A stretch of 64,000 nucleotides of DNA from an uncultured Candidatus Saccharibacteria bacterium (GCA_964369145.1 CAYJEE010000001.1:2052-66051); one strand, 5' to 3'; shown: positions 5,561 to 64,000, numbered from the stretch's first letter. The notes: generated by a model from the letters alone, not told the origin. A program made the numbers and translations.

Positions 5561-5595
5561 CAATAAAAAAGACGCCTCTCGGCGCTTTTTTATTG
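5561..5595. terminator. bidirectional terminator caataaaaaag-acgcc-tctc-ggcgc-ttttttattg
   Basis: palindromic A/T-flanked GC hairpin between convergent tRNA copy and tRNA-Ala. Confidence 0.5.
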
Positions 5596-5668
5596 TGGAC
5601 CCTACAGGACTCGAACCTGCCACCCCATCATTGCAAATGATGTGCTCTACCAGATGAGCTAAGGGCCC
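5596..5668 (-). tRNA. tRNA-Ala (anticodon TGC), 73 nt, G3:U70 present, CCA not encoded
   Basis: Reverse complement GGGCCCTTAGCTCATCTGGTAGAGCACATCATTTGCAATGATGGGGTGGCAGGTTCGAGTCCTGTAGGGTCCA folds as a cloverleaf; anticodon loop TTTGCAA. Confidence 0.9.
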
Positions 5669-5982
5669 GTTGTGTTATATTTTGTCGTAAACGATATCTA
5701 ATTGCAAATGATGGTCACTGATATTTTTCTGGTGAAAAATTCAGCGACCCCACCTCGGCTCGTCAGCCTCCGGTCTTGCGAAGTGATAAAATCACTTCTC
5801 ACTCCACCAGATGAGCTAAGGGCCCGTTGTGTTATATTTTGTCGTAAACGATATCTAATTGCAAATGATGGTCACTGATATTTTTCTGGTGAAAAATTCA
5901 GCGACCCCACCTCGGCTCGTCAGCCTCCGGTCTTGCGAAGTGATAAAATCACTTCTCACTCCACCAGATGAGCTAAGGGCCC
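5649..5982. repeat. 157-bp tandem direct repeat, 2.1 copies; each unit = first 20 nt of tRNA-Ala gene + 137-bp identical spacer
   Basis: accagatgagctaagggccc recurs at 5649, 5806 and 5963; the two spacers are identical as far as compared. Confidence 0.85.
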
Positions 5983-12311: not shown

Positions 12312-12542
12312 ATGTCACTAAAAAATTTTTTCCTTAAAAAAATGCTTGCGTCGAAAATGAAAGGTGTGCCACAAGAAGAGCAAGATAAAATATTTAATAT
12401 GATTGAAAAAAATCCAGATCTTTTTCAGAAGATTGGTACTGAAGTGCAAGAAAAAATGCAAAAAGAAGGGAAGGATCAGATGACCGCAGCGATGGAAGTG
12501 ATGCAGAAACATAAGGACCAACTCCAGGGCCTCATGAAGTAA
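12312..12542 (+). CDS. small Lys/Glu/Met-rich hypothetical protein (76 aa)
   Basis: ORF only. Confidence 0.35.
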   Translation: MSLKNFFLKKMLASKMKGVPQEEQDKIFNMIEKNPDLFQKIGTEVQEKMQKEGKDQMTAAMEVMQKHKDQLQGLMK

Positions 12543-12663
12543 AACTTCCACATTTGGCCAATCTCATCGGCTAAAATCTAGGAACGGTCCTCAACGTACG
12601 ACGTGTACGTCTCCGGTCCCTTCCCAGATTTTATCCGCGACCTTGTCTCAAATCTGAAAGTTT
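12543..12663 (+). repeat. about 120-nt conserved structured intergenic element, copy 1
   Basis: about 85% identical to 32984-33115; contains the acgtac-loop-gtacgt hairpin; stem changes are compensatory between copies. Confidence 0.6.
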
Positions 12664-32983: not shown

Positions 32984-33115
32984 AACTTCCATATTTGGCC
33001 AATCTCATCGACTAAAATTCAGAAATGGTCCTCAACGTACCATTAAGTACGTCTCCGGTCCCTTCCTGAATTTTATCCGCGACCTTGACTCAAATCTGAA
33101 AGTTTTAATAGTGCT
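32984..33115 (+). repeat. about 120-nt conserved structured intergenic element, copy 2
   Basis: see copy 1; directly after the alaS stop. Confidence 0.6.
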
Positions 33116-51343: not shown

Positions 51344-51823
51344 TCATCCTTGTTTCTTTAGGAGTTCTCGAATTACGTGATGGAGCTGGGTAAACCCATC
51401 AAGTCCCTTTTGCACAATACGAACCATAGGATCCTTCAGGATCTCATTGGGAAGTTCTTCTCCCAGCTCGCCGTTTCTGTGGGTGTGGATGATGATGGGG
51501 ATATAGCACCCATCTTCACGAAGTTTATTGATCAAGTGTACAGATGTTCCGTTCATATAGAGAGGGTCGCATTGGTTCAAGGATGGGATCTGCGCGACAA
51601 TTCTTTCATATGCATCACCACACTCAGGATCATCCAGTGAAGGGTCCGTAAGAGGAAAATCGTATTCCATTACCAAGACCCTTAGATCCGGTTTGGCCGG
51701 TAGGAAATCTGCAAGTGTGTAATACACGTCAACAGATGCATCAAAGGCTTTTCTTAGAGCCTCTGCAATCTGTAATGCTTCACCAGGAAGAAAGTTGTCA
51801 ATAACCGCAATTTTTATGTTCAT
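51344..51823 (-). CDS. hypothetical protein with flavodoxin/receiver-like fold (no phospho-Asp signature)
   Basis: MNIKIAVIDN start with GGAG SD; alternating beta-alpha pattern. Confidence 0.4.
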   Translation of the reverse strand: MNIKIAVIDNFLPGEALQIAEALRKAFDASVDVYYTLADFLPAKPDLRVLVMEYDFPLTDPSLDDPECGDAYERIVAQIPSLNQCDPLYMNGTSVHLINKLREDGCYIPIIIHTHRNGELGEELPNEILKDPMVRIVQKGLDGFTQLHHVIRELLKKQG

Positions 51824-51860
51824 GGTTGCTCCTAAGTTATTTATAGCATTTAGGAGACCA

Positions 51861-52010
51861 AAGTAAAGCATGTCGCACTACAAGAGTACTAATGTATTAC
51901 TAAGGCCCCTATGCAGGGGACCTAAGTAATACATGTCGCACCACAAGAGTACTAGTTAGTATCTAACGAGGGGATGAACCCCTCGAAGATACTAATGTCG
52001 CACAATATAT
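51861..52010. repeat. about 63-bp tandem degenerate repeat (2.5 units), each unit = AAGTAA..CATGTCGCAC.ACAAGAGTACTA motif + GC hairpin (CCCCT..AGGGG or GAGGGG..CCCCTC)
   Basis: units start at 51861, 51924 and 51986. Confidence 0.5.
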
Positions 52011-52175: not shown

Positions 52176-52225
52176 TTTACTTCTCTTTAAAAATCCATAT
52201 TCCCAGTAGGGAAGTCCCCTGCCCT
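52176..52225 (+). promoter_or_regulatory. 48-bp element tttacttct(c)tttaaaaatcc(a)tattcccagtagggaagtcccctgccct, copy A
   Basis: near-identical to 55631-55678 (copy B). Confidence 0.6.
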
Positions 52226-52268: not shown

Positions 52269-55200
52269 ATGATACGTAGAGTTATATTAAAATTATTTTT
52301 GGTAACAAGTACTTTTATGTTTTGCTGCGGGATTACATTTCCGTACGTTGGTGTACTAGAAGCTGCAGATGCGCTGATTATTTCTAATATTGGAGTAGAT
52401 AGTGTTTCCTACACATCTGTGCGTATTCAATGGAATACAGATATACCCGCTTCATTGTCTCGAGTAAAATATGACACTGTAGCAACAGAAGAGCCATTTA
52501 CAAACGGTACAGCTAACAAACTTAGTAATACTAGTACAATTCATGGATATACTCTTGGTGGTCTTGCGCCAAATACACTTTACAATTTTAAAGTGTGTTC
52601 AACGGTAAATTCAATCGAAACATGTAGCCCCACTCAGAATTTCACTACAACAGCTGCACCTTCAAATCGTTTTTCTCCGCCAACACTTCCAAACTCTGCT
52701 ACGTTGTCTTCTATGCCTACGATAAACGGTACTACACACACTGTAGCAGCTGATTGTAGTGATTTGCAGATAAAAATAAATACTGCCGCAGCAACGTCCG
52801 GCTCATTGAATCATCAAATTCTTATTCCTCCTACTGCTCTTTGTAAAGGTAATTATGAGCTTCCGTCTCGAGCTGGTACGGGTTGGATTGTAGTCCGTTC
52901 TGCGGCAAGTGATGCCCAGCTTCCTCCGGAAGGTACCCGTGTAGGCCTTAGTTATGCGCCTGTTATGCCCACTATTTACGGGCTAGTTGAAGGTGAGACA
53001 CATTTACAATCAACTATTTTTACAGAGAATCCAACTTCTAAATGGAGATTTGTTGGTGTTCAGATTAAAGGAAGTGCAGGGCGACGTGGATCAGCGGTTC
53101 ATCTTGGACGCGGAGTATCAACAGATATCATTTTTGATAGAGATATTTTTGATATATCAGGGGATACTACATATACCGTAAGAAATGAAGGTGTCCGCAA
53201 TATTGTTGCACATTCATATATCCATCATGTAAAAACAGGCTCTCTCGCAGTGGCAATTGGTCTGACGAACTCACAATATGCTCTGATTGATAACAACTAT
53301 ATCAATGCTCCTGGTATTAGCATTTTTGGTGAAGAAGGAGGAGGAAATCTACCGCCAGCTTCGGATATTACAATCACTCGAAACTTTTTTGAATGGGATA
53401 GTGTGAACAAAACAAATACAATAGTAAGACATCAATTAGAATTTAAATCAGGGGAAAGAATTCTCATTAGGGGTAATATCTTTAAAGACTCATGGACTGG
53501 CGGAATTACTGGTGGCATGGCACAAGTAATACTTTTCTTTCCAAGAGCAGGTTGGAGTGGTTCCATACGAAATTCATTAAATTATATTGCTGACGTGACT
53601 ATAAAAGATAATGTTCTTATTAATACTGCTGGCGGAATTGGCTTAGTTGGATCTGAATCGGCTGGAGTAGCTTCTGACGTAGCTTCAACTAAACGTTTTC
53701 TCATTAAGAACAATATTTTTTATAAGTTAAATGGTTATAATGGCGCTCCCGGTAATGCAGTAGCAGGATCTCCTTTTTATATTGCAGGAGCAATTGAAGA
53801 TGTAGTGATTGATCACAATACGATATATGATCCAAGAGGACTGTTTCCTGCTACTATTTGGTTTCTTGAAAACGTGGGTGCTGGTTTAAAATTAACCAAT
53901 AACATTATTACACAAAATTATACGAGTAGTATTGGTGGCTTTTACAAAAATACAGATTATCCAGGTCAGCTTCCAGTAGTAACGAACGGTAGCGCGTTTT
54001 CAACAATTGGCGGATCAGTGCGTGCAGCACCAAATGTAGACCCTACTCTTTTGGTACAAGGTAATCTTATTCTTCCTGGGGTTACTGACACTAGCTCAGA
54101 ATCAGCGTACTCAAATCCTTCTTCTTTCTATTCTCTTGCGAGCTGTACTACCTACTGGTCTGGCTTTACAAATAATGCTTGTGCGGGTAATATTTCTACG
54201 CTTACAGCAAACTCAGTAACTGCATCAGTTGGTTTTGCTAATACGTCTACATTCTCTGGTTTATATTTAGCATCTGGTCCATACAAAAATAGTGCTTCGG
54301 ATGGAGCAGATCCTGGAGTTGATATAAATAATTTAAATGCTCAAGTATCAAATACTATGACCGGCGGTTATGTTCCCCCTCCCCCCTCCGACACCACTCC
54401 CCCTGTCTTTTCTAATATTTCAGCCGGCACAATCACCACTGACTCAGTGATGGTCACCTGGACAACAAACGAATCCTCTGACACTCAGGTAGAATACGGA
54501 CTCACTGCAAGCTATGGTTCGTCTTCAACATTAAATGCAACACTCGGATCATCTCACAGCGTACCCCTTACATCACTGACTCCAAACACCCTATATCATT
54601 ATCGTGTAAAATCTAGAGACGGTGCAGGCAACCAAGCGATTTCCGCAGATCAAACCTTCACAACACGTGCTGTCGTAGCGACAGTGGTAGATCCGACATT
54701 AAATGTAGTCACAAAAGATTTCGGTAGTCTTCCGGTTGGTTCATCTACTCAACCATTCATGTTTTCAATCAACAATCCAAACAGTTCTTTTGTTGGAGTC
54801 AGTGCTGTGGCAGTAACGGGTGATTTTTCAATCACTACAAACTACTGTACTTCCGGTATGCAACCTTCTACTCACTGTGACATATATGTTGCTTTTAACC
54901 CCTCTACAAGTGGAACACGAACAGGTACTCTCATCATCACTCTTACAGGTGCTTCTACAAACACACTCTCTGTCACACTTGCCGGTACAGGAACAGCAGT
55001 CAACACACCAGAAGACCCTCCAATCCTTCCTCCACCTCCAGTTATCACACCCCCTCCTGTAGTCACTCCTCCTATCATTCCTCCTCCTCAAAAGATACCT
55101 CCACCAGGAATCATCATCACCAAAACTCTTGCTCGAGGAATGACTTCTCCCGAGATTATCATTCTTCAAACCCATCTCAAACAAATTGGTTTGTTTGAGA

Positions 55201-55601
55201 ACTCAATACAGACAAGCAACTACTTTGGTCCGGCAACAGAAAGAGCGGTTAAACTCTATCAAGCATCTAAAGGAATCGAGCAGACTGGTATCGTCGGCCC
55301 ACTAACACGAGGAAGCTTAGCTGGATCATCGACTCCACCACAAACTGTTACTTCTCAAGTACTTCCTACAACTGTATACATCGGTGTGAAGCATTCTGAT
55401 GTAGTGAAGTTACAAAATATTCTCAAGAGACTTGGTTTCTTCCCACAGAATGTTGATTCTTCAGGATACTTTGGCCCTACCACAAAAAAAGCGGTGCAGG
55501 CATTCCAGAGACAATACACTATTGCCTCAAGTGGTACTGAAAATACCACTGGGTACGGTATGGTGGGAAAGAAAACGTGGGCTAAGCTTTTAGGTTTGTA
55601 A
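52269..55601 (+). CDS. cell-wall-anchored surface enzyme: Fn3-like N-terminus, right-handed beta-helix (pectate-lyase-like) domain, Fn3, Pro-rich linker, two PG_binding_1 domains
   Basis: parallel beta-helix repeats; Fn3 with ...TPNTLYHYRVKSRD...; C-terminal PG-binding repeats. Confidence 0.65.
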   Translation: MIRRVILKLFLVTSTFMFCCGITFPYVGVLEAADALIISNIGVDSVSYTSVRIQWNTDIPASLSRVKYDTVATEEPFTNGTANKLSNTSTIHGYTLGGLAPNTLYNFKVCSTVNSIETCSPTQNFTTTAAPSNRFSPPTLPNSATLSSMPTINGTTHTVAADCSDLQIKINTAAATSGSLNHQILIPPTALCKGNYELPSRAGTGWIVVRSAASDAQLPPEGTRVGLSYAPVMPTIYGLVEGETHLQSTIFTENPTSKWRFVGVQIKGSAGRRGSAVHLGRGVSTDIIFDRDIFDISGDTTYTVRNEGVRNIVAHSYIHHVKTGSLAVAIGLTNSQYALIDNNYINAPGISIFGEEGGGNLPPASDITITRNFFEWDSVNKTNTIVRHQLEFKSGERILIRGNIFKDSWTGGITGGMAQVILFFPRAGWSGSIRNSLNYIADVTIKDNVLINTAGGIGLVGSESAGVASDVASTKRFLIKNNIFYKLNGYNGAPGNAVAGSPFYIAGAIEDVVIDHNTIYDPRGLFPATIWFLENVGAGLKLTNNIITQNYTSSIGGFYKNTDYPGQLPVVTNGSAFSTIGGSVRAAPNVDPTLLVQGNLILPGVTDTSSESAYSNPSSFYSLASCTTYWSGFTNNACAGNISTLTANSVTASVGFANTSTFSGLYLASGPYKNSASDGADPGVDINNLNAQVSNTMTGGYVPPPPSDTTPPVFSNISAGTITTDSVMVTWTTNESSDTQVEYGLTASYGSSSTLNATLGSSHSVPLTSLTPNTLYHYRVKSRDGAGNQAISADQTFTTRAVVATVVDPTLNVVTKDFGSLPVGSSTQPFMFSINNPNSSFVGVSAVAVTGDFSITTNYCTSGMQPSTHCDIYVAFNPSTSGTRTGTLIITLTGASTNTLSVTLAGTGTAVNTPEDPPILPPPPVITPPPVVTPPIIPPPQKIPPPGIIITKTLARGMTSPEIIILQTHLKQIGLFENSIQTSNYFGPATERAVKLYQASKGIEQTGIVGPLTRGSLAGSSTPPQTVTSQVLPTTVYIGVKHSDVVKLQNILKRLGFFPQNVDSSGYFGPTTKKAVQAFQRQYTIASSGTENTTGYGMVGKKTWAKLLGL
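55099..55601 (+). repeat. left copy of a ~503-bp inverted duplication (C-terminal 164 codons + stop of the surface protein; encoded aa 100% identical to the right copy)
   Basis: encoded aa identical to the gene 58255-60561 C-terminus; antisense translations 55355-55549 and 58217-58501 are also identical (64 aa); nt identity compared directly only in part. Confidence 0.85.
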
Positions 55602-55630
55602 TTCTGGATTATTTGTGACCTTAGATCATC

Positions 55631-55678
55631 TTTACTTCTTTAAAAATCCCTATTCCCAGTAGGGAAGTCCCCTGCCCT
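55631..55678 (+). promoter_or_regulatory. 48-bp element copy B, followed directly by TATAAT, upstream of the ECF sigma gene
   Basis: ...cccctgccctataatag. Confidence 0.6.
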
Positions 55679-55739
55679 ATAATAGATTGTTCGCTATAAA
55701 TTATTAAAAGGTACTATTGCAATATTCTATATTTGATGT

Positions 55740-56330
55740 ATGGTTTGTACCAGAGGAACCATTATGGAACCTGATATTTTGACTGTTTTACCAATAGTCG
55801 ACAAGTTGGTACGAGTGCTTACACGGGATTATCCACCGTGGGTGCGTGAGGGTTATTTCGACGATATGGTGCAGGTGGCCAGAATACGGATACTTGCACG
55901 TATTGGTACATATGATCCATCGAAGGCGCCGTTGAATCATTTCTTGACTCTGCACACACGTTGGGCGATTCGCGAGTACCTTAGAAGTAAGGAGTTCATT
56001 TTTGATCGATTCGTGCCGATTAGAGGCGGAGAATTCGATGGCATCGATTCCGAAGGAGTTGATGTTGTGGATACCAATGCGTGTACCGAACTGCGCCTAG
56101 TTGGACATAGCAGGATTGCGGAGGTGCTTCAGCACCTACAAGATTCTGTAAGTGAAAAACAATGGAAAGCAGTTAAGTTGTACTACTTTGAAGAAAAAAC
56201 TCATGCTGAAATTGCAGGCATTCTCGGATTGTCTGTTGGATATGTTAGAGAAATTATTTCTCGTTCCCTCAATATCTTTCGCGAAAAGCTTTTTTCGTTA
56301 AGAATAGATTCAGCACGTCATGTGCTGTAA
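55740..56330 (+). CDS. ECF-type sigma-70 family factor (regions 2 and 4)
   Basis: region 2 YFDDMVQVARIRILARIGTYDPSKAPLNHFL..; region 4 EKTHAEIAGILGLSVGYVREIISRSL. Confidence 0.7.
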   Translation: MVCTRGTIMEPDILTVLPIVDKLVRVLTRDYPPWVREGYFDDMVQVARIRILARIGTYDPSKAPLNHFLTLHTRWAIREYLRSKEFIFDRFVPIRGGEFDGIDSEGVDVVDTNACTELRLVGHSRIAEVLQHLQDSVSEKQWKAVKLYYFEEKTHAEIAGILGLSVGYVREIISRSLNIFREKLFSLRIDSARHVL

Positions 56331-56359
56331 ATGAGATAGAGAACAACAGGGGGTGTGAT

Positions 56360-56959
56360 GTGGTGATTTTTGTCGTAAAAGGTCAGGAAGTAAATGACTT
56401 CCAGATTACGGGAATTTGTCATGTGCTCACTGAAGCGAAGCACAGAGTGATACGTGGCACAATGCAAATGCTCATTAGTGATTGCGGGAGGTCAAGAGTT
56501 GAGTGTGTCATCATTGTCAATGACCGCAGAACTGAACAAACTTTTCAGTTGATTTTGCAGGCGGTATCGACCTCCTGCAGTTCAGTTATTGTGCTCACAA
56601 CCAAGATACAGAAAATGGAAGCTGCGAGTCTGGATGTGCTTCCAAAGAGAGTGTCTGTTCTAAAGATGGATACACCGGCTGAGAAGCTCTTGCTCGTACT
56701 GCAACTCTGCAACACACATCAGGTGATTCATCCTGATGTTGTGAAGCAAGTCACTGTTCCTGAACAGGTCGGGTTTACACCAAGAGAGCGAGAAATTTTT
56801 TCACTTCTCGTAGATCCATCTTATACACAAAGAGATATCGCTGGGTTACTTCACATCTCAGAAAGCACCATGAATACGCATGCAACCAGCATAAACAAAA
56901 AATTACGGATACCGGGTGGAAGACTGCATCTTATACAGAGGTACAGCACCAAGCCGTAG
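56360..56959 (+). CDS. LuxR/GerE-family HTH regulator with degenerate receiver-like N-domain
   Basis: C-terminal TPREREIFSLLVDPSYTQRDIAGLLHISESTMNTHATSINKKL; N-domain lacks the DD/D/K phospho-relay residues. Confidence 0.6.
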   Translation: MVIFVVKGQEVNDFQITGICHVLTEAKHRVIRGTMQMLISDCGRSRVECVIIVNDRRTEQTFQLILQAVSTSCSSVIVLTTKIQKMEAASLDVLPKRVSVLKMDTPAEKLLLVLQLCNTHQVIHPDVVKQVTVPEQVGFTPREREIFSLLVDPSYTQRDIAGLLHISESTMNTHATSINKKLRIPGGRLHLIQRYSTKP

Positions 56960-57008
56960 CAACCAAGTTCTGTTTCAAAAAAGGCCCTCGATCGTGAGGG
57001 TCTTTCCT

Positions 57009-58253
57009 TTACACATTTTTCCCTGCAACATACCCAGTCGTCCAACAGAGCTGCAATGAAAAGCCTCCAGAAGGTCTGTCTATATGGATCATGTCTCCCG
57101 TAAGGAAAAGATTATCGATTTTTGTAGATTGCATGGTCTTTGTATCAATCTCACGAATATCCACTCCGCCATCAGCAACCACCGCTTTGTCGAATCCAAG
57201 GAGGCCCAAAATTGACACAGGAAGAGCTTTGAGAAGCCTAGTGATATCTTTACGCATCTCTTTGGTCACACTATGCGTCTTTATTTCAGGATCGATATGT
57301 GGCAAGAGTGAGAGGATTACACGACCAGTTCCATGAGGTGCGATGTCACTAAACACATTTTTAAATGCTTTATTTTTATGTACATCAAATATCTTGATAA
57401 TATACTTTTCAAGCGTCCCCTGATCTTTGTCTGGATAGGTGTCGATATGAAGTGTAACAAGACCCTTGTGTAAAAGATCCGCTACTTCTTTTGCAGTATT
57501 GAGTATAAGGGGGCCAGAGAGTCCAAAATGAGTACACAAAACTTTCCCTTTTTTAGTAAATGCTTTCGTACCATCTACAAAAAAGGAAAGTTTCACTGGA
57601 TGCTCGAGAGAACCGAGAGAAATTCCCGCGAGTTCTTTGACCCACGCTTCTTCGACTATAATTGGCACGATAGTCGGTGTCGGTTCGTGTATAGTGTGTC
57701 CGAGGTTGCCCAGCCAGCCGAATCCGTCACCAGTTGATCCTGTCTCGGGATGAGAGAGTCCACCAGTAGCTATCACCACAGACTCCCCTTCATACACACC
57801 TTTTTTTGTAACAACCTTTGAAATTTTTTTATCGGTAATTTCCAGTTTAACTACAGGGTTATCAGTCATCACAGTCACATTGTGTTCTTTTAAAAATTTC
57901 ACCAACACATCACATACATCAGAGGCTTTTTCTGATTTTGGAAATGCACGTTTTCGAGCTTCTACAAAAAGGGGGAGTCCCCTACCCTCAAAAAATTCAA
58001 AGGTTTCATTCACACCAAATACAGAAAATGGAGAATATAAAAAATCTTTTCCTGATTTGTAATGTGAGAGAAGTGCATGAATATCGTATTCTGCATTTGT
58101 GATGTTGCAACGTCCACCACCGGTGATACGCAACTTTTCTCCGAGTTTTTTATTTTTTTCAAGCAAAAGCACGCGTTTTCCACGCGCCCCCGCGACTCCG
58201 GCAGCCATCATCCCAGATGCTCCCCCACCGATTACGATTACGTCGTAGTTCAT
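57009..58253 (-). CDS. HI0933/BaiN-family FAD-dependent flavoprotein
   Basis: MNYDVIVIGGGASGMMAAG...GGGRCNITN. Confidence 0.8.
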   Translation of the reverse strand: MNYDVIVIGGGASGMMAAGVAGARGKRVLLLEKNKKLGEKLRITGGGRCNITNAEYDIHALLSHYKSGKDFLYSPFSVFGVNETFEFFEGRGLPLFVEARKRAFPKSEKASDVCDVLVKFLKEHNVTVMTDNPVVKLEITDKKISKVVTKKGVYEGESVVIATGGLSHPETGSTGDGFGWLGNLGHTIHEPTPTIVPIIVEEAWVKELAGISLGSLEHPVKLSFFVDGTKAFTKKGKVLCTHFGLSGPLILNTAKEVADLLHKGLVTLHIDTYPDKDQGTLEKYIIKIFDVHKNKAFKNVFSDIAPHGTGRVILSLLPHIDPEIKTHSVTKEMRKDITRLLKALPVSILGLLGFDKAVVADGGVDIREIDTKTMQSTKIDNLFLTGDMIHIDRPSGGFSLQLCWTTGYVAGKNV

Positions 58254-58254
58254 A

Positions 58255-58757
58255 TTACAAACCTAAAAGTTTAGCCCACGTTTTCTTTCCCACCATACCG
58301 TACCCAGTGGTATTTTCAGTACCACTTGAGGCAATAGTGTATTGTCTCTGGAATGCCTGCACCGCTTTTTTTGTGGTAGGGCCAAAGTATCCTGAAGAAT
58401 CAACATTCTGTGGGAAGAAACCAAGTCTCTTGAGAATATTTTGTAACTTCACTACATCAGAATGCTTCACACCGATGTATACAGTTGTAGGAAGTACTTG
58501 AGAAGTAACAGTTTGTGGTGGAGTCGATGATCCAGCTAAGCTTCCTCGTGTTAGTGGGCCGACGATACCAGTCTGCTCGATTCCTTTAGATGCTTGATAG
58601 AGTTTAACCGCTCTTTCTGTTGCCGGACCAAAGTAGTTGCTTGTCTGTATTGAGTTCTCAAACAAACCAATTTGTTTGAGATGGGTTTGAAGAATGATAA
58701 TCTCGGGAGAAGTCATTCCTCGAGCAAGAGTTTTGGTGATGATGATTCCTGGTGGAG
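58255..58757 (-). repeat. right copy of the ~503-bp inverted duplication
   Basis: see left copy. Confidence 0.85.
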
Positions 58758-60561
58758 TCGGTACAACCGGAGAGATTATTGTCGTCGTTGCTAAAGGTGC
58801 TGGAGGTACAACAACTGGAGGAACAATGATGGGAAGTGGGTCAATAGGAGGTATAATAGATCCCCCGCCACCGCCTCCCCCTCCTCCACCACCTCCACCG
58901 CCGCTCACAACTGTAGCAAGTGTAGTAAATGTTGTATTAGGTGAAGTGATGAGGTTACCTGATGCATCTCTACTCTTCACACGATAGTGATACACCGTAT
59001 TTGGCGAGAGATTGATGAGAAATGCTGTATGAGAAGTATTGAGTGACTCATTGAGAGTACTTACACTTCCGTATTGATCTGTTATACCGTATTCTACCTG
59101 TGAGCTTGCAGATTCACTGGTTGTCCATGAAACTGTGACGGATGTTTGAGTGATACCTGAACTCGCTAAGGATGAAATTATTGGAGGGGTACTATCGGGA
59201 ACTGTTCTCCATTCTACATACTTTTGACTCCATCTATAGTTTTGAGAATACTGTTTTCCACCAGTACCTACTCCACCCAAATATGCTCCAGCAACTCCTG
59301 AATTAAAAATTTTATCTCCTCGGATACGATAAACAACATCTCCAGTTTGTCGATAGACCCAACCATACAGAGGAGCAATAAGTAGGTTAAGATCGGGTGC
59401 GGGAGCACCTTGTATATAAGTGGTTGTATCGACATAACGAAAAGCTTGGCCGTTCTCATCCCAATGAGTGAGCCATAATTCGTCGGCAGCCAACTTTAGT
59501 AGCGGAGGAATTCTAGGATCCGCTGTTAAATCCCAATACTCAATCAGTGCTTCAGCAGAAAGTGCAACCATAAATGGTTGTACATAATTAGCATTTTTAC
59601 TTACAAACCATTGGTCAAAATGACCAATTACTATCTCTGCAATATCTTGAAGAGTAGGTTTCCTAGCTAGACCCACACGCTCTGCTGCAATATTAACTTC
59701 TAATGCATAAGCCAATTCTCTCGAATTTTCCCAACTTACAGCAAAACCAACATTTTGAAGACTTGCATACGCACTATTTTCTCGCATGAGGTTAAGAGCA
59801 TCTTTTGACAACGTGTCACCAGTCCGTTCAAAATTCATAGCCAAACCTTGAGGAAAATACCGCCAACCGGGAATTCCTCCATTTGCATTTATAACGTATG
59901 GTCTGTATAAACTTTGTATTAAAAGTGCGCAATCATCCCAACTTGGATCATGTGTGTAATCTGCTATTTGATAAAATACTCTGATGCCATCGTAATACCA
60001 CGCAGCACCCTCCCATATAGAAGTCACCTCAACAGGATCACAATGCATTAAACCAAAATGAGTCATGTTATTTTCCCATGTAGAAAGGCTTGAGAGAGAT
60101 GTGTTAGATGGAAATACATCTTTAACTATTTGTGCTGGAATAGGGTTGACAGTAATATCATAGACAACACTCCGGACAACTCCGCTTTGACTGGTATATG
60201 TGATGGTAATTGGGTATGTTCCCGTGGGAGTATTTGTCGTAGTTATTATCTTTAATGAAGTTATACTACTAATATTATATAAATATGTTCCACAACAATA
60301 CTTAACCATATCCGGGTAAGTCGCTGTCATTCCTGTCGCAAGTCCACTCACTGAAGGTGTGACTGGTTCATCAACCCCACTTATAAGAGATGATGCTAAA
60401 ACAATAGCTATTGAATTACCTTTAACCACACTATGTGGACCAAAAGCTGTTAGTGTAAATTGTGGAGGTTCGTTTATTTGTGCGTGGATAGTATTACTCA
60501 GTATAAAAAACAATACTATTCCGACAAACATCAAAATTGTAAATAGCGAGTACTTTCTCAT
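58255..60561 (-). CDS. cell-wall-anchored surface enzyme 2: signal peptide, alpha/alpha-toroid-like (polysaccharide lyase/GH-like) domain, Fn3, poly-Gly/Pro linker, two PG_binding_1 domains
   Basis: distinct N-terminal catalytic region; Fn3 ...SPNTVYHYRVKSRD...; GGGGGGGGGGGGGG linker; C-terminal 164 aa identical to the 52269-55601 product. Confidence 0.65.
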   Translation of the reverse strand: MRKYSLFTILMFVGIVLFFILSNTIHAQINEPPQFTLTAFGPHSVVKGNSIAIVLASSLISGVDEPVTPSVSGLATGMTATYPDMVKYCCGTYLYNISSITSLKIITTTNTPTGTYPITITYTSQSGVVRSVVYDITVNPIPAQIVKDVFPSNTSLSSLSTWENNMTHFGLMHCDPVEVTSIWEGAAWYYDGIRVFYQIADYTHDPSWDDCALLIQSLYRPYVINANGGIPGWRYFPQGLAMNFERTGDTLSKDALNLMRENSAYASLQNVGFAVSWENSRELAYALEVNIAAERVGLARKPTLQDIAEIVIGHFDQWFVSKNANYVQPFMVALSAEALIEYWDLTADPRIPPLLKLAADELWLTHWDENGQAFRYVDTTTYIQGAPAPDLNLLIAPLYGWVYRQTGDVVYRIRGDKIFNSGVAGAYLGGVGTGGKQYSQNYRWSQKYVEWRTVPDSTPPIISSLASSGITQTSVTVSWTTSESASSQVEYGITDQYGSVSTLNESLNTSHTAFLINLSPNTVYHYRVKSRDASGNLITSPNTTFTTLATVVSGGGGGGGGGGGGGGSIIPPIDPLPIIVPPVVVPPAPLATTTIISPVVPTPPGIIITKTLARGMTSPEIIILQTHLKQIGLFENSIQTSNYFGPATERAVKLYQASKGIEQTGIVGPLTRGSLAGSSTPPQTVTSQVLPTTVYIGVKHSDVVKLQNILKRLGFFPQNVDSSGYFGPTTKKAVQAFQRQYTIASSGTENTTGYGMVGKKTWAKLLGL

Positions 60562-60662
60562 TGTGTTGCTTTATAGTTTTATGGCGAAGTAAGGGCTGTA
60601 TAATTACTTTTCACTAACCTACTTAAGTTTAGCATTTATTTTGATGCAATAGAACGCAAACC

Positions 60663-60713
60663 ACCATCATCCCAGACGCTCCCCCACCGATTACGATTAC
60701 GTCGTAGTTCATA
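60663..60713 (-). pseudogene. 51-bp duplicate of the flavoprotein gene 5' end (MNYDVIVIGGGASGMM..), one mismatch, no continuing ORF
   Basis: ccatcatcccaga(c/t)gctcccccaccgattacgattacgtcgtagttcat matches 58203-58253. Confidence 0.6.
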
Positions 60714-60807
60714 AGTGTAAACTATACCATACATACTTATATAAATATTTAGACAATATGGGGTATTTGTACACCTATCGTATTTTTTAAAATAATGTGG
60801 TATACTA

Positions 60808-61452
60808 TTGTCCATGACATATACCAAAAAGATCGCTTATCTCTGTATGTTCTTAGCCCCGTTTCTGGCTGTGGCCCAAGGACAAGCCTTTTCCACATCA
60901 CTTGGGTACGGAAGTACAGAAAAAAATGAAGTTATCAAGCTTCAGCAATTTCTCGTATCTGAAGGATTACTCGGAACAAACCCAACAGGCAATTACCTTT
61001 CTCTGACCGCAAACGCTGTAAAAGCATTCCAAAAAAGTCAGAACATTCAAGCGACTGGTTATTTCGGCCCACTGACCCGCGCAGCAGCGAACCAAAAGTT
61101 TACTGAGCGCAACACTCCCCAAGCATCTGTCTCTGTATCATCTGTGAGCTCAAACAAATCTCTCGCCGCAGCAGTCTTTTTGTCAAACTCTAAAAAAGTA
61201 GAATGGAGTACAGCCAACTACCCATCAAACGTTGGTGTCAATATCAACCTTCTCAAAAAAGTAAATACTTCTCCGGTAACCTACGCATTTGTACGTCAGA
61301 TTGCAAAAGACACACCAAATGACGGACAAGAAGTATGGACACCCACATCAGCCGAGAAGAATCTCGATCTCTATGTTGAAGTGACCTGTTCGACTACATA
61401 TACATTTACAAAAGGCTGTCAGATCTCTCGAGACACTATAAAAGTTCAGTAA
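60808..61452 (+). CDS. secreted PG_binding_1-domain protein
   Basis: signal peptide; ...VIKLQQFLVSEGLL...GYFGPLTRAA. Confidence 0.5.
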   Translation: MSMTYTKKIAYLCMFLAPFLAVAQGQAFSTSLGYGSTEKNEVIKLQQFLVSEGLLGTNPTGNYLSLTANAVKAFQKSQNIQATGYFGPLTRAAANQKFTERNTPQASVSVSSVSSNKSLAAAVFLSNSKKVEWSTANYPSNVGVNINLLKKVNTSPVTYAFVRQIAKDTPNDGQEVWTPTSAEKNLDLYVEVTCSTTYTFTKGCQISRDTIKVQ

Positions 61453-61461
61453 GTACTCTAC

Positions 61462-61857
61462 TTACCAGTTCAGTACTGTGATTGTCAGTTGAACTATTGT
61501 TGCAAATGATACCCAAAGGAGGTATGGGATATTTATTTTTGCTACCCAAGGTACGTATTTTCGTATACTCCACATCGCCCAGACAAGTGTCCCGAGTACG
61601 AGGAGGATATCGATTGACGCAAGTGGTAGATTGACCAAACCAAACTGTATCGGAGTAAACAGAAGATTAAATACAATATTGAGTGCAAATGGTAATGCGA
61701 TTTTTGCTGGCAATTTCTTCTTGAAAAACTGAAAGAAAACATAGCCAAAAGAAATCGCAATCAGGATATAGAGCACAGTCCATACTGGCCCAAAAATCCA
61801 TGAAGGTGGCGCCCAGCTCGGTTTTATCAATTGTGCGTATTGAGTGTAGTTTTGCAT
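61462..61857 (-). CDS. tspO: TspO/MBR-family membrane protein, N-terminally short (131 aa)
   Basis: KPSWAPPSWIFGPVWTVLY signature. Confidence 0.6.
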   Translation of the reverse strand: MQNYTQYAQLIKPSWAPPSWIFGPVWTVLYILIAISFGYVFFQFFKKKLPAKIALPFALNIVFNLLFTPIQFGLVNLPLASIDILLVLGTLVWAMWSIRKYVPWVAKINIPYLLWVSFATIVQLTITVLNW

Positions 61858-61906
61858 AAAAGGTACAAAAAACAGAGGCCACCCTCTGTTTCTATATAAA
61901 TAATAA

Positions 61907-62308
61907 TTATTCAGTAGTTACCCCGTCAAAGTCTGCTTCGTTTGCCATCGCATCAGCTTTTGTGGTGCGGATGATACCGTCTTTGTGATGTGATGGAGCG
62001 TAGATAGTGTAGAACTTTAATGATTCAGAGTCTGAAGTGTTGATCACATTGTGCTCTGTCCCCGCAGGCACGACGATCGCATCTCCGTCTTCTACTTCAT
62101 ATTCAGTCTCACCTACGATTACTTTTCCTTGTCCAGCATCAAATCGGAAAAACTGATCATTTTCTTCATGTACTTCTGATCCGATATCTTCTCCAGGAAG
62201 CAGTGACATGAGGACGAGCTGCATGTGTGTGCCTGTGTAGAGTACGTGTCGAAAGTCTCCATTTTCTTTTGTTAAATCCTCAATGTGTCCAAAGTATCCT
62301 TTTTTCAT
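61907..62308 (-). CDS. cupin-fold protein
   Basis: two-motif cupin pattern; internal Met start preferred. Confidence 0.5.
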   Translation of the reverse strand: MKKGYFGHIEDLTKENGDFRHVLYTGTHMQLVLMSLLPGEDIGSEVHEENDQFFRFDAGQGKVIVGETEYEVEDGDAIVVPAGTEHNVINTSDSESLKFYTIYAPSHHKDGIIRTTKADAMANEADFDGVTTE

Positions 62309-62321
62309 AAATATTATCTTA

Positions 62322-62873
62322 TTATTGCATGAGTAATTCTTTAAATGTAATTGACGCGGGTGCGGTAAATTTTGATTCATCCACAGACCACGAGTCACAG
62401 TCATAATCTCCAATCGTCTCCCCATTGAAACCGATGTATGCAGACGGTGGAGTAGCTTTACCCTCTATCTGAGCACCCCCTTGCGGCGTTTGATTTCGTA
62501 TTTTCATACCTCGATTACCGAGCGCACTTGACCATGTGTATGTATAACCATCTTTGACAATCATCGAACTCTGGATAGTCATCCCTTGAGTCTGTGTGGT
62601 GAAGTCACCACGGATGCGATCCTTGTCGATGAAGACTGTGCCTTTACTCTCAATATTCTCAACGTATTGATTGACGGTACACTGGTACGAACCGCCCTGT
62701 TTCAAGAGTTCGGTGAATGCCATTTTCTTGCCCGCAGGTGCATTATTTTCTGTTTCTGTTGATTCGGTGTTTGTACTGACTACCTCCGGCTTATACACTG
62801 TTTTATAAGTAAAAAATCCTCCCCCGGCAAGTACAAGTACTGCCGCAAATATAATAAATGGTTTTGTAAGCAT
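62322..62873 (-). CDS. secreted/lipoprotein-like hypothetical protein
   Basis: N-terminal TM/signal then soluble domain. Confidence 0.4.
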   Translation of the reverse strand: MLTKPFIIFAAVLVLAGGGFFTYKTVYKPEVVSTNTESTETENNAPAGKKMAFTELLKQGGSYQCTVNQYVENIESKGTVFIDKDRIRGDFTTQTQGMTIQSSMIVKDGYTYTWSSALGNRGMKIRNQTPQGGAQIEGKATPPSAYIGFNGETIGDYDCDSWSVDESKFTAPASITFKELLMQ

Positions 62874-62890
62874 GTATCTAGTATAGCAAA

Positions 62891-63595
62891 TTAAGTCTTC
62901 AAGTAATACTCGAGTGTATACATCCAATCCACATCATCCTCCCCGCTTTCGCGTTTTTGTTTGAGGAGCCATTCGAGATATCCTCGGTCATTATTTACAA
63001 CTTCAGAAAGTGCTTTGTCTTTGTATTTTCCAAAATTAAATTTTTTGTAGAGTGACGGTACGCTCGAAATCTCAATCATTTTTTTAATTGCCAATTCCTC
63101 GTCTCCAGTAGTTTCTTTTACTTTTGCCAAGAGTCGCTCAAACACTGCGTGCAAAACATTTACGTCTCCTTCCGCATCATGCGCATTACCTGGCACATCG
63201 AGGTCGAGATAGTAGCGGAGATACTGGAGATTGTATTCAGGGATCACTCCTGCGCTGTCGAGATGACGAGCAACACGGAGGGTGCAGATAAACTGTGGGA
63301 TTTCCATACCATCTCGCTTGAGCATTTCGAGGTCAAAGAGTGCATTGTGGGCCACCAAAACGCCTGTAGAGAGGAGTTTCTGGAGCTCATCAGCAAAGAT
63401 ACTTCCCGGGAAAGGTTCCTTGTCTACGAGCATTTTGTTGGTGATATGAGTGATACTCATCGACTTCACCGACACCGGTACTGGTGGTTTGAAATACCCC
63501 ACCTTCACTTCATCATCCACCCGATAACAGACCTGACAGAGACGATCTGTTTTTTCAATCCCCGTTGTTTCAGTATCAAGAAAAATTAATTGCAT
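62891..63595 (-). CDS. DnaQ-like DEDDh 3'-5' exonuclease with C-terminal DUF3820-like tail
   Basis: FLDTETTG (Exo I), HNALFDLEML (Exo II), HDAEGDVNVL (Exo III); tail FNFGKYKDKALSEV..YLEWLL. Confidence 0.7.
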   Translation of the reverse strand: MQLIFLDTETTGIEKTDRLCQVCYRVDDEVKVGYFKPPVPVSVKSMSITHITNKMLVDKEPFPGSIFADELQKLLSTGVLVAHNALFDLEMLKRDGMEIPQFICTLRVARHLDSAGVIPEYNLQYLRYYLDLDVPGNAHDAEGDVNVLHAVFERLLAKVKETTGDEELAIKKMIEISSVPSLYKKFNFGKYKDKALSEVVNNDRGYLEWLLKQKRESGEDDVDWMYTLEYYLKT

Positions 63596-63639
63596 GAAGA
63601 TAGTATAGCAAAAATATTCTCATAGGTATGTACACAAAA

Positions 63640-63672
63640 AAGATTAAAGAAAAAAACCACCACCCGCCGGTG
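63640..63672 (-). terminator. minus-strand intrinsic terminator accaccggcgggtggtgg + ttttttt
   Basis: terminates a minus-strand transcript entering from the right edge. Confidence 0.5.
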
Positions 63673-63687
63673 GTCTTTTCCGGTTGG

Positions 63688-63810
63688 TCATGGTTGTGCT
63701 TGTTGCCCGAGGTAGTTAACCTCGAGCTTTTCCCAATTCTTTTCTCCCACTAACACTAACAGCAGGAAGAACAGAATTGCTATAAAAAAATAAAACTGAT
63801 TTTTTTTCAA
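63688..63810 (-). CDS. possible 40-aa hydrophobic peptide (TTG start, AGGAGA SD)
   Basis: AGGAGAtaaaTTG; (M)KKNQFYFFIAILFFLLLVLVGEKNWEKLEVNYLGQQAQP. Confidence 0.25.
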   Translation of the reverse strand: MKKNQFYFFIAILFFLLLVLVGEKNWEKLEVNYLGQQAQP

Positions 63811-64000
63811 TTTATCTCCTTTCTCACCACCTGATGGTAGGTGCATGGTGCAACTGGGTCACCCATCGAGTCGCACTGCAGGCCGAAGCCCTGCAACCGT
63901 CGTTTTGCCGGCTCAGCTTTGTGAACCGGAGCCGGTGTCGAAGTTTTGCCGAAGCTGAAACTCGACCAGTCGATGAGAAGTCTAAACCCTAGTATTGTTG
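63811..64000 (-). ncRNA. candidate structured RNA or riboswitch-like leader (possibly truncated by the window edge)
   Basis: GC-rich nested hairpins; blocks ACTAGGGTT, CTGGTCGAG, CCGG..CACAAAG..CCGG, ACGACGG recall the ykkC/guanidine-I aptamer (from memory, unverified). Confidence 0.2.

What the first reader, a model, noticed from the sequence alone, without database searches (positions are those of the whole stretch)
58203..60713. 51-bp direct duplication of the flavoprotein 5' end flanks surface-enzyme gene 2, an insertion or rearrangement footprint
Seen: the first 51 nt of the HI0933 flavoprotein gene, including the ATG (58203-58253), recur 2460 bp away at 60663-60713 with one mismatch and no continuing ORF. 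The interval contains exactly gene 2 plus its about 100-bp upstream region. Gene 2 also abuts the flavoprotein ATG with only a 1-nt gap. Inference: gene 2 was inserted as a cassette at the flavoprotein start, or an ancestral arrangement was disrupted by recombination. Together with the 503-bp duplication this marks a recombinationally active locus.
Basis: seen in the sequence. Interest (0 to 1): 0.55.

Follow-up and report, generated by a model that had tools for sequence, protein, structure and literature searches.

The report
Relic gene start marks recent insertion
A 50-base copy of the start of a flavoprotein gene is a dead leftover from a recent event that inserted one cell-wall-anchored secreted-enzyme gene into that gene's first codons in an uncultured Patescibacteria genome; this is a clear but fairly ordinary example of how such tiny genomes swap surface genes.

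Summary
The repeat is 50 nt (58205-58254 and 60664-60713), 49/50 identical, offset 2459, with zero matches expected by chance. The closest relative found (L163, flavoprotein 96% identical) has the predicted empty site: the flavoprotein lies directly next to the PG-binding gene, with no gene 2 and no second 50-mer. R' keeps the native flank; R keeps the gene body. Both copies share a lineage-specific shortened N-terminus (MNY), so the duplication post-dates the split from L163. R' encodes only a 27-codon stump. Independent Logan contigs end exactly k-1 = 30 nt from each distinguishing base, so read data from other runs see the same repeats. The locus holds a second footprint of the same kind: gene 1 is bracketed by a 48-50-nt duplication (D3). 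The inverted repeat is 503/504 identical. More distant relatives carry other PG-binding-tailed genes 9 nt upstream of the flavoprotein, so this slot is a hot spot. There is no transposase, integrase or terminal inverted repeat. The most likely mechanism, which is inferred, is one-sided homologous (single-crossover) integration of a fragment in which gene 2 already abutted the flavoprotein start. Interest is modest.

The parts
58205..58254 (-). R: the functional copy of the 50-nt repeat. It is 1 nt upstream of the ATG plus the first 49 nt of the flavoprotein ORF, and is contiguous with the gene body.
   Evidence: It is identical to L163 over the 43 alignable nt and carries the ancestral T at 58218.
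60664..60713 (-). R': the relic copy of the flavoprotein 5' end. It is contiguous with the native upstream intergenic region and carries the derived C at 60677.
   Evidence: Its right flank is orthologous to the L163 flavoprotein/PGB214 intergenic region.
60629..60712 (-). Stump ORF left by the relic: 16 flavoprotein codons, then 11 unrelated codons, then a stop (MNYDVIVIGGGASGMMVVCVLLHQNKC*).
58255..60663 (-). The inserted segment, 2409 nt: gene 2 plus its 102-nt leader. It is absent from the closest relative.
   Evidence: No homologue of the leader was found in any fetched sequence. There are no terminal inverted repeats.
58255..60561 (-). Gene 2, 768 aa. It has a hydrophobic, signal-peptide-like N-terminal stretch (my reading of the sequence, no predictor run), an enzyme-like core of about 450 aa with no Pfam or PDB match, an FN3/Pur_ac_phosph_N domain, a proline-rich linker and two PG_binding_1 domains.
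57009..58253 (-). HI0933-like/BaiN-type flavoprotein gene, 414 aa and intact. It now lies 1 nt downstream of the gene 2 stop.
60714..60807 (.). Native divergent intergenic region between the old flavoprotein start (now R') and PGB214. It carries extended -10-like boxes for both directions (by eye).
   Evidence: The promoter assignment is an inference; the consensus scan was no better than chance.
60808..61452 (+). PGB214: a small PG_binding_1 protein gene. It is the flavoprotein's neighbour at the empty site in L163.
58254..58757 (-). Right arm of the 504-nt inverted repeat: the 3' module of gene 2 (two PG_binding_1 domains plus the stop plus 1 nt).
   Evidence: 503/504.
55099..55602 (+). Left arm of the inverted repeat: the 3' module of gene 1.
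   Evidence: Logan contig L168 links the G variant at 55586 to the sigma-gene side.
52269..55601 (+). Gene 1, 1110 aa, a PG-binding-tailed surface protein. It is absent from L163, L001, L002 and L081. Gene-1-like genes lie upstream of the flavoprotein in L164 and L167.
52176..52225 (+). D3: left copy of the second flanking duplication (42 nt ungapped, 50 nt gapped). It is colinear with the native left flank.
55631..55678 (+). D3': right copy of the second flanking duplication, downstream of gene 1 and upstream of sig1.
55740..56959 (+). Two sigma-70/LuxR-type regulator genes (sig1 55740-56330, sig2 56360-56959). They are also absent from all the relatives.

Best explanation
R' (60664-60713) is a non-functional relic of the original 5' end of the flavoprotein gene. 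In the lineage of this Patescibacteria genome, after its split from its closest sequenced relative, a 2409-nt segment was inserted 49 nt into the flavoprotein ORF. The segment carries one gene for a secreted, peptidoglycan-anchored enzyme (gene 2) and its 102-nt leader. The event duplicated 50 nt of local sequence (ATG-1 to +49). As a result an intact flavoprotein ORF now starts 1 nt after gene 2's stop, while the old start, still attached to its native promoter region, survives as a 27-codon stump upstream of gene 2. These steps are shown. The following steps are inferred. The flavoprotein has lost its own promoter and is now read as the distal gene of a gene 2-flavoprotein transcript, the organisation that relatives L164 and L167 have with a 9-nt gap. 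The most likely mechanism is one-sided homologous, single-crossover (Campbell-type) integration of a DNA fragment from a close relative in which gene 2 already abutted the flavoprotein start. The 50-mer would then be the stretch of homology carried by that fragment. I put about 0.45 on this sub-mechanism and about 0.25 on a staggered-break or template-switch insertion that duplicates about 50 nt of target. A second event of the same type, a 48-50-nt duplication of D3, placed gene 1 on the other side of the flavoprotein. The two inserted genes share a 3' module that is 503/504 identical, through very recent common origin or gene conversion.
For: The repeat is real and not due to chance. The empty site is seen in the closest relative, L163: a single D3, then 33 nt, then the flavoprotein, then 137 nt, then PGB214, TspO, cupin and exonuclease, with no gene 1, sigma genes, gene 2 or second 5' end. 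The outgroups L001, L002 and L081 also lack gene 1 and the sigma genes. L001 and L002 also lack gene 2; the L081 contig begins inside the flavoprotein, so its upstream slot is unseen. Each repeat copy is contiguous with one native flank: R with the gene body, R' with the orthologous intergenic region. The same holds for D3/D3'. On polarity and age: R and R' share the derived MNYDV start, whereas L163 has MKDNLYDV and the other relatives have longer N-termini. At the one mismatch, R matches L163 and R' is changed. The 2 differences in 92 nt of duplicated sequence compare with 7-15% divergence between the window and L163; P(<=2 differences) is 0.04 at 7% and 0.004 at 10%. The assembly is real: independent Logan contigs L161 and L162 (start at 60684) and L168 (55556-58248) are 100% identical to the window. 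They end exactly 30 nt (k-1 for k=31) from the first base that distinguishes the repeat copies. L161 and L168 are each recorded in 3 samples, with L162 from a further run. A donor-type adjacency exists: PG_binding_1-tailed genes end 9 nt before the flavoprotein start in L164 and L167, colinear with the window across the junction. There is experimental precedent: in E. coli, DNA with one-sided homology integrated mostly by a single crossover of a circularised molecule, leaving a direct duplication of the homologous segment (56 of 60 clones; PMC3240628).
Against: No donor carrying gene 2 was found. The best homologue is 53% identical over the catalytic core only, and the leader matches nothing. 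No donor-derived divergence tract is visible in the flavoprotein next to R. Under a single-crossover model the length of the duplicated homology should vary (109-950 bp in PMC3240628), yet both duplications here are about 50 nt. That fits a fixed-stagger mechanism better. No independent contig spans the leader|R' junction or the R|module junction, so those two joins rest on the source assembly alone. The orientation of the 2.65-kb segment between the 504-nt repeat arms cannot be verified with the contigs available. Co-transcription of gene 2 and the flavoprotein is untested. The consensus promoter scan was uninformative (15 sites found, 15.9 expected).
Confidence: 0.8

Rival explanations
1. 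The insertion was made by a dedicated or repair-based mechanism that duplicates a fixed stretch of about 50 nt of target. This could be staggered nicks about 50 nt apart followed by fill-in, or a replication template switch that re-enters about 50 nt behind the exit point. No donor with a pre-existing gene 2-flavoprotein junction is needed.
For: Two independent single-gene insertions in this locus have almost the same duplication length: R/R' is 50 nt and D3/D3' is 48-50 nt. A similar footprint occurs in a distant relative: L010 has a perfect 40-nt duplication (about 57 nt with the diverged tail) of a gene's 3' end, bracketing a pilin-like gene. The duplicated sequence is strictly local, including lineage-specific codons.
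Against: This reading requires two coincidences. The duplication must start exactly at ATG-1, and the inserted fragment must end exactly at gene 2's stop codon. Both are expected if the junction pre-existed in a donor, as in L164 and L167. No candidate enzyme lies in 29.5-64 kb. There is no junction microhomology. Such repeats are rare in 2.27 Mb of related loci.
Confidence: 0.2
2. Site-specific recombination: gene 2 is a mobilisable cassette that integrated at an att site in the flavoprotein 5' end. R and R' are attL and attR, as for genomic islands in tRNA genes.
For: The topology is the same as an island that rebuilds the end of its target gene and leaves a partial copy at the far end. The slot is occupied by different genes in different relatives.
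Against: No integrase, recombinase or transposase domain was found in any of the 30 ORFs scanned (every ORF of 120 aa or more between 29.5 and 64 kb, including the insert itself). The two duplicated sequences, R and D3, are unrelated to each other. R/R' identity covers the lineage-specific MNY codons and stops sharply at both ends, so the copy was made from local sequence and not brought in as a foreign attP. Relatives with an occupied slot have no flanking repeat. No other copy of gene 2 exists in public data.
Confidence: 0.05
3. Assembly artefact: the contig is a chimera of co-existing strains joined at shared sequence, and no single genome contains both copies.
For: The source is a metagenome-assembled contig (the 79,465-nt NCBI record). 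The stretch 58219-58757 is entirely repeated sequence. The exact gene 2 protein is missing from a collection that holds its neighbours.
Against: Independent Logan assemblies reproduce 55556-58248 and 60684-64000+ at 100% identity. They break exactly k-1 nt into each repeat, which requires two different contexts for the shared 31-mers in those read sets. The leader|R' join shares no k-mer with the flavoprotein body beyond the repeat itself, and R' carries its own SNP 13 nt from that join, so a k-mer chimera cannot create it. Both repeat pairs are direct, each brackets exactly one gene, and the flavoprotein keeps its ancestral orientation to both flanks. That pattern is not expected from a misjoin.
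Confidence: 0.05
4. The second copy is a maintained functional element, such as a shared promoter or leader, or a regulatory upstream ORF for gene 2, and not a footprint.
For: R' still has a start codon and the native upstream region, and could be translated as a 27-codon upstream ORF 68 nt ahead of gene 2.
Against: No relative has a second copy. The sequence is coding sequence of a Rossmann GxGxxG motif, not a regulatory motif. For contrast, L096 shows what a shared upstream motif looks like: it sits in front of two genes, each with a Shine-Dalgarno sequence.
Confidence: 0.03

Closest known systems
Single-crossover (Campbell-type) integration of circularised non-replicating DNA that carries one-sided homology (E. 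coli lacZ system, PMC3240628)
   Same: Heterologous DNA ends up flanked by a direct duplication of the chromosomal segment it shared with the target. Each copy is contiguous with one native flank, and no transposase or site-specific recombinase is needed.
   Different: The experimental duplications were 109-950 bp, whereas this one is 50 nt, near the lower limit for homologous pairing. No donor molecule is known here, and the process has not been demonstrated in Patescibacteria.
Homology-facilitated illegitimate recombination during natural transformation (described in PMC3240628 and papers cited there)
   Same: A one-sided homologous anchor (here the flavoprotein 5' end) lets foreign DNA with no other homology enter the chromosome. 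This suits organisms that take up DNA.
   Different: Classical HFIR deletes recipient sequence between the anchor and the illegitimate joint and does not duplicate it. No microhomology was seen at the leader|R' joint.
Genomic islands and prophages integrated into tRNA or protein-gene ends, with att direct repeats of about 15-60 bp (from my own knowledge)
   Same: One repeat copy rebuilds the intact gene end and the other is a truncated relic at the far end of the insert. The repeat length is similar.
   Different: There is no integrase. The cargo is a single gene. The duplicated sequence is lineage-local rather than an element-borne attP. The target is a 5' end, and the second event in the locus used an unrelated sequence.
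Transposon or IS target-site duplication (from my own knowledge)
   Same: The insert is flanked by a direct duplication of target sequence.
   Different: Those duplications are 2-15 bp, not 50. This insert has no transposase, no terminal inverted repeats and no other copies.
Transformation-induced merodiploidy in Streptococcus pneumoniae (PMC3784515, abstract only)
   Same: Recombination during DNA uptake creates partial duplications in a haploid genome.
   Different: That process makes large tandem duplications between existing repeats, not a 50-nt duplication around a new gene.

Membership tests
Transposon / insertion sequence | A transposase gene inside the inserted segment | tested here: not met
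   The insert holds one ORF. Its only Pfam matches are PG_binding_1, Pur_ac_phosph_N and fn3. Its homologues are enzyme-like surface proteins.
Transposon / insertion sequence | Terminal inverted repeats at the insert ends | tested here: not met
   the inverted local-alignment score of the 60-nt ends was 12.0 against a shuffle mean of 11.7+-1.9 for the gene 2 insert, and 11.0 against 12.7+-2.3 for the gene 1 insert.
Transposon / insertion sequence | A short target-site duplication (2-15 bp) | tested here: not met
   The duplication is 50 nt.
Integrase-mediated island / prophage-type integration | A tyrosine or serine recombinase gene in or beside the element | tested here: not met
   No recombinase domain was found in any of the 30 ORFs scanned, which were all ORFs of 120 aa or more between 29.5 and 64 kb. 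The region 1-29 kb was not scanned.
Integrase-mediated island / prophage-type integration | Direct repeats in which one copy rebuilds the target gene end | tested here: met
   R rebuilds the flavoprotein start, and R' is a truncated copy.
Integrase-mediated island / prophage-type integration | The same element or att core recurs in other genomes | tested here: not met
   No close homologue of gene 2 was found among 5.8 billion proteins. No relative has a second copy of the 5' end.
Single-crossover / homology-facilitated integration | The insert is flanked by a direct duplication of local chromosomal sequence, each copy contiguous with one native flank | tested here: met
   The identity includes the lineage-specific MNY codons.
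Single-crossover / homology-facilitated integration | A donor arrangement with the cargo directly adjacent to the anchor sequence | tested here: inconclusive
   L164 and L167 have PG-binding-tailed genes 9 nt upstream of the flavoprotein. Those genes are gene-1-like, however, and no donor with gene 2 was found.
Single-crossover / homology-facilitated integration | A donor-derived polymorphism tract next to the insert | tested here: inconclusive
   Divergence from L163 is even along the flavoprotein at 3-16 differences per 100 nt, and the first bin is inflated by the N-terminal indel. A conspecific donor would leave no signal.
Integron gene cassette | An IntI integrase and attC/attI recombination sites | tested here: not met
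   No integrase was found in 29.5-64 kb. There is no inverted-repeat structure at the insert ends. The flanking repeat is coding sequence of the target gene.

The most novel reading that the evidence does not exclude
Patescibacteria may possess an undescribed insertion route that places single surface-protein genes into the chromosome with a fixed target duplication of about 50 nt. It could be a staggered-cut enzyme or a stereotyped template-switch during repair of taken-up DNA. This locus would then show two products of it (R/R' at 50 nt, D3/D3' at 48-50 nt), and L010 would show a third (40-57 nt).
Probability: 0.12. Interest if true: 0.6.

Novelty: new member of a known kind. Interest (0 to 1): 0.3.

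Why it matters
This locus is a clean, datable example of how a streamlined, uncultured Patescibacteria genome gains a cell-surface enzyme. An empty-site relative is available, and the broken gene start was left behind as proof of the insertion. The region upstream of one housekeeping-type flavoprotein is a swap site for peptidoglycan-anchored secreted proteins across related genomes. These are the kind of proteins expected to mediate contact with hosts or substrates. The insertion also rewired the flavoprotein's expression: it lost its promoter and now sits behind the new gene. If the roughly 50-nt duplication length proves to be a rule rather than a coincidence, it would point to an unrecognised insertion mechanism in this phylum.

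Tried and rejected
1. Exact look-ups of the flavoprotein, gene 2 and P0121 found no contig.
2. P0039 (1110 aa, the same length as gene 1) is an unrelated FN3-repeat protein in an unrelated context.
3. The metagenome-contig scan with the flavoprotein gave nothing closer than 80%. Only L081 was syntenic, and that contig starts inside the flavoprotein.
4. The gene 2 homology search found no relative above 53% identity, so the source of the cargo stays unknown.
5. The 102-nt leader matches nothing: not the native intergenic region, not gene 1's leader, not the L163, L164 or L167 upstream regions, and no fetched locus.
6. The test for a donor-derived mosaic tract in the flavoprotein showed no step in divergence.
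7. Base composition of the inserts is indistinguishable from the surroundings.
8. The promoter and terminator consensus scans were at chance level: 15 promoter-like sites found against 15.9 expected.
9. D3 as a terminator: it matches the pattern on the minus strand, but its folding energy is no better than shuffles, with z between -0.05 and -1.2. Its function is left open.
10. Rfam and tRNA scans found no RNA gene at either duplicated site.
11. A PDB sequence search with gene 2's core found nothing.
12. The apparent similarity between R and D3 (11 of 15 positions) is not significant, by a by-hand estimate that allows for all offsets.
13. The L096 direct repeat is a shared upstream motif, not a gene-end duplication.
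14. A reading in which the 2.65-kb segment between the 504-nt arms is really inverted was rejected as the historical state. It would turn both flanking repeat pairs into inverted repeats, and it would reverse the flavoprotein relative to both conserved flanks. Flipping in the population is not excluded.


Full report
OBSERVATION. The sequence shows a 50-nt direct repeat at 58205-58254 (R) and 60664-60713 (R'). It is 49/50 identical with a start-to-start distance of 2459 nt. The block is really the base before the ATG plus the first 49 nt of the flavoprotein ORF. With up to 3 mismatches allowed, the pattern occurs exactly twice in the 64-kb window, and none of 100 dinucleotide shuffles gave any match. 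The one mismatch (58218 T / 60677 C) is synonymous (GCA/GCG). R heads an intact 414-aa HI0933-like/BaiN-type flavoprotein at 57009-58253, minus strand. R' runs into unrelated sequence and stops after 27 codons. Between the copies lie gene 2 (58255-60561, minus strand, 768 aa) and a 102-nt leader. Gene 2's TAA is 1 nt from the flavoprotein ATG.

LOCAL ANATOMY. Gene 2 has a hydrophobic, signal-peptide-like N-terminal stretch (my reading of the sequence; no predictor was run). It also has a core of about 450 aa with no Pfam or PDB sequence match but many distant homologues, an FN3/Pur_ac_phosph_N domain, a proline-rich linker and two PG_binding_1 domains. Gene 1 (52269-55601, plus strand, 1110 aa) has a different N-terminal body and the same tail. 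The shared tail is a 504-nt inverted repeat (55099-55602 / 58254-58757). It is 503/504 identical, not perfect: the single difference is a synonymous AAG/AAA at 55586/58270, and similarity vanishes immediately outside both edges. Its end at 58254 coincides with the end of R. Gene 1 is itself bracketed by a direct repeat, D3/D3' (52184-52225 / 55637-55678). This repeat is 41/42 identical and extends to 48-50 nt with one 2-nt gap, at 52176-52225 / 55631-55678. Two sigma-70/LuxR-type genes (55740-56959) lie between D3' and the flavoprotein stop. PGB214 (60808-61452), a small PG_binding_1 protein, is divergent from R' across 94 nt. TspO, cupin and exonuclease genes follow it.

COMPARATIVE EVIDENCE. 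A genome-collection scan found two relatives, L001 and L002, with flavoproteins 89% identical. In both, TspO ends 8 nt before the flavoprotein start, and the D3 region lies a few hundred nt beyond the flavoprotein stop. Gene 1, the sigma genes, gene 2 and PGB214 are all absent. L081 also has D3 next to the flavoprotein 3' end, without gene 1 or the sigma genes. Its contig begins inside the flavoprotein, so its upstream slot is unseen.

Protein searches then led to a much closer relative, L163 (Logan SRR12901024). Its flavoprotein is 96% identical at the amino-acid level and 93% at the nucleotide level, and its flanks are 85-90% identical. Its gene order is: single D3, 33 nt, flavoprotein, 137 nt, PGB214 homologue (85%), TspO, cupin, exonuclease. 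L163 has no gene 2 and no second copy of the flavoprotein start; a search allowing up to 12 substitutions in 60 nt found only the gene itself.

Base-level alignment shows that R' keeps the flank orthologous to the L163 intergenic region, including a shared TTTTAATGTGGTAT box ahead of PGB214. R keeps the gene body. D3 keeps the left flank, which is colinear with L163. D3' keeps the first few bases and a loose resemblance to L163's right flank.

POLARITY AND AGE. Both R and R' begin ATGAACTAC (MNY), whereas L163 has ATGAAAGATAATTTGTAC (MKDNLY). L001, L164, L166 and L167 also have longer N-termini. The duplication therefore copied a sequence that had already changed in the window's own lineage after the split from L163. 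L163 cannot be a derivative that lost gene 2 by recombination between R and R'. At the mismatch, R agrees with L163 and R' is the changed copy. The two duplications together show 2 differences in 92 nt. The window and L163 differ by about 7% in the flavoprotein and 10-15% in the flanks. P(<=2 differences) is 0.04 at 7% and 0.004 at 10%. The three repeat pairs (1/50, 1/42, 1/504) are not significantly different in age.

IS THE ASSEMBLY REAL? The window's proteins trace to one NCBI contig of 79,465 nt. Three Logan contigs assembled independently from public runs match the window at 100% identity. L161 (ERR4405439, recorded in 3 samples) and L162 (ERR4408280) start at 60684. L168 (ERR4405439, recorded in 3 samples) spans 55556-58248. 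Each end lies exactly 30 nt, which is k-1 for k=31, from a base that distinguishes the repeat copies:
- 60684 is 30 nt into the 36-nt exact run 60678-60713.
- 58248 is 30 nt into 58219-58254.
- 55556 is 30 nt beyond the module SNP at 55586.

A genome with only the L163-type arrangement would give one unbroken contig from the flavoprotein into PGB214. The breaks show that the shared 31-mers have two contexts in those read sets. L168 also ties the G variant of the module end to the sigma-gene side. No independent contig spans the leader|R' join or the R|module join. However, a k-mer chimera cannot create the former, because the only shared sequence is the repeat itself and R' carries a private SNP 13 nt from the join. 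I rate an artefact at about 5%. The orientation of 55603-58253 cannot be checked with these data. The assembled orientation is the one in which both repeat pairs are direct, each brackets one gene, and the flavoprotein keeps its ancestral orientation to both flanks.

A HOT SPOT. The slot upstream of the flavoprotein differs between relatives:
- L164 (GCA_054605875.1, flavoprotein 80%) has a 1350-aa PA14/Pur_ac_phosph_N/PG_binding_1 protein ending 9 nt before the flavoprotein start, with the PGB214 homologue divergent upstream.
- L167 (GCA_040384425.1, 79%) has an 893-aa PG_binding_1 protein, also 9 nt upstream.
- L166 (84%) has a 366-aa cellulase-like gene 83 nt upstream.

The L164 and L167 genes are gene-1-like, with tail modules 58% and 65% identical to the window's. 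L164 is colinear with the window at the nucleotide level across the module-flavoprotein junction. Neither carries a relic flavoprotein start. The tight adjacency of a PG-binding-tailed gene followed by the flavoprotein therefore recurs, with different cargo.

MECHANISM. A transposon origin fails on all three of its defining features. The insert has no transposase, no terminal inverted repeats, and a 50-nt rather than 2-15-nt duplication. Site-specific integration fails on several counts:
- None of the 30 ORFs scanned (every ORF of 120 aa or more between 29.5 and 64 kb) has a recombinase domain. That region is core chromosome: ribosomal proteins, RpoA, GrpE/DnaK/DnaJ and AlaRS.
- R and D3 are unrelated sequences.
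- The duplicated block is copied from lineage-local sequence.
- The element occurs nowhere else.

The topology is exactly that of a single crossover between the chromosome and a circularised fragment carrying the cargo plus a short stretch of homology. In an E. coli system this was the dominant outcome, seen in 56 of 60 clones with duplications of 109-950 bp (PMC3240628). This model also explains two features that would otherwise be unlikely: the duplication begins exactly at ATG-1, and the insert ends exactly at gene 2's stop codon. Both follow if the donor already had gene 2 abutting the flavoprotein, as L164 and L167 do with their own genes. Three points count against it. No donor is known. 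There is no divergence step next to R. Both duplications being about 50 nt is a coincidence under this model, and it favours a fixed-stagger or template-switch route. I put about 0.45 on the single-crossover route, about 0.25 on a 50-nt target-duplicating route, and the rest on site-specific, artefact or undetermined explanations. All of these mechanistic steps are inference.

CONSEQUENCES (INFERRED). The native promoter region stays with R' and now reads through a 27-codon stump into gene 2. The flavoprotein has no room for its own promoter and is presumably co-transcribed with gene 2 and translated by re-initiation at TAATATG. This matches the organisation native to L164 and L167. The 503/504 inverted repeat could allow the 2.65-kb segment between the arms to flip. 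Flipping would not change any protein, but it would place the flavoprotein behind gene 1.

VERDICT. This is a recent, real insertion footprint in a variable surface-gene slot of a Patescibacteria genome. It is a new member of a known kind and of modest interest. The main open point is the repeated duplication length of about 50 nt.

Noticed in passing
window 52176-52225 and 55631-55678: Gene 1 is bracketed by its own 48-50-nt direct duplication, D3 (41/42 ungapped). It is single-copy in L163, L001, L002 and L081, just beyond the flavoprotein stop. This is the same kind and size of footprint as the 50-mer around gene 2.
   Followed up: yes
window 55099-55602 / 58254-58757: The 'perfect' 504-nt inverted repeat has one mismatch (55586 G / 58270 T on the plus strand, a synonymous AAG/AAA Lys) and razor-sharp edges. 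It flanks the sigma genes and the flavoprotein, so that segment could invert by homologous recombination.
   Followed up: partly
window 5645-5958 (tRNA-Ala at 5595-5668, minus strand): A 157-nt tandem duplication (99% identical) starts inside tRNA-Ala. A relic copy of the tRNA's first 24 nt plus its upstream region sits at 5802-5958. This is another duplicated gene 5' end in the same genome.
   Followed up: no
window 12535-12663 and 32976-33105: A direct repeat of about 130 nt (86-93% identical) occurs 20.4 kb apart. The second copy starts at the last bases of the alanyl-tRNA synthetase gene. There is no Rfam match.
   Followed up: no
window 51866-52010; L163 8186-8290: Two copies plus a partial third of ATGTCGCACnACAAGAGTACTA are separated by GC-rich hairpins, upstream of the 175-aa ORF at 51344-51871. 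The motif is conserved in relatives, its function is unknown, and it has no Rfam match.
   Followed up: no
window 60617-60635 compared with 58260-58276: The 102-nt leader of gene 2 contains GCTAAACTTAAGTAGGTT, which resembles the last codons of the PG-binding module (GCTAAACTTTTAGGTT). The leader also begins TGGTTTG, like the module's end GGTTTGTAA. The direct end-to-end score is 21 against 12.4+-2.0 in shuffles. This may be a relic of another module-tailed gene upstream of gene 2 in the donor.
   Followed up: partly
L010 7658-7697 and 8706-8745: In a distant relative, a perfect 40-nt duplication (about 57 nt with a diverged tail) of the 3' end of a 122-aa ORF brackets a prepilin-like 216-aa gene and a 100-aa ORF. 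It lies 1.3 kb upstream of that genome's flavoprotein. This is a similar gene-end-duplication footprint.
   Followed up: partly
L164 5861-9913; L167 5310-7991: Gene-1-like PG_binding_1-tailed proteins (1350 and 893 aa) sit 9 nt upstream of the flavoprotein in two more distant relatives. Inverting window 55603-58253 would recreate that gene 1-to-flavoprotein adjacency.
   Followed up: partly
window 58255-60561: The exact gene 2 protein is absent from the 15-billion-protein collection, and the homology search found nothing above 53% identity. Gene 1, sig1, the flavoprotein, TspO and PGB214 from the same 79,465-nt NCBI contig are all present.
   Followed up: partly
L081 position 1 (equivalent to window 58211): A metagenome contig from a relative with an 80%-identical flavoprotein begins 43 nt into the flavoprotein ORF, inside the region equivalent to R. 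This could be a repeat-induced assembly break there too, or a coincidence.
   Followed up: no
window 55740-56959: Two adjacent sigma-70 region 2/4 / LuxR-type regulator genes are lineage-specific and absent from all the relatives examined. They are inserted between D3' and the flavoprotein stop, with a bidirectional terminator-like hairpin at 56985-57012.
   Followed up: partly
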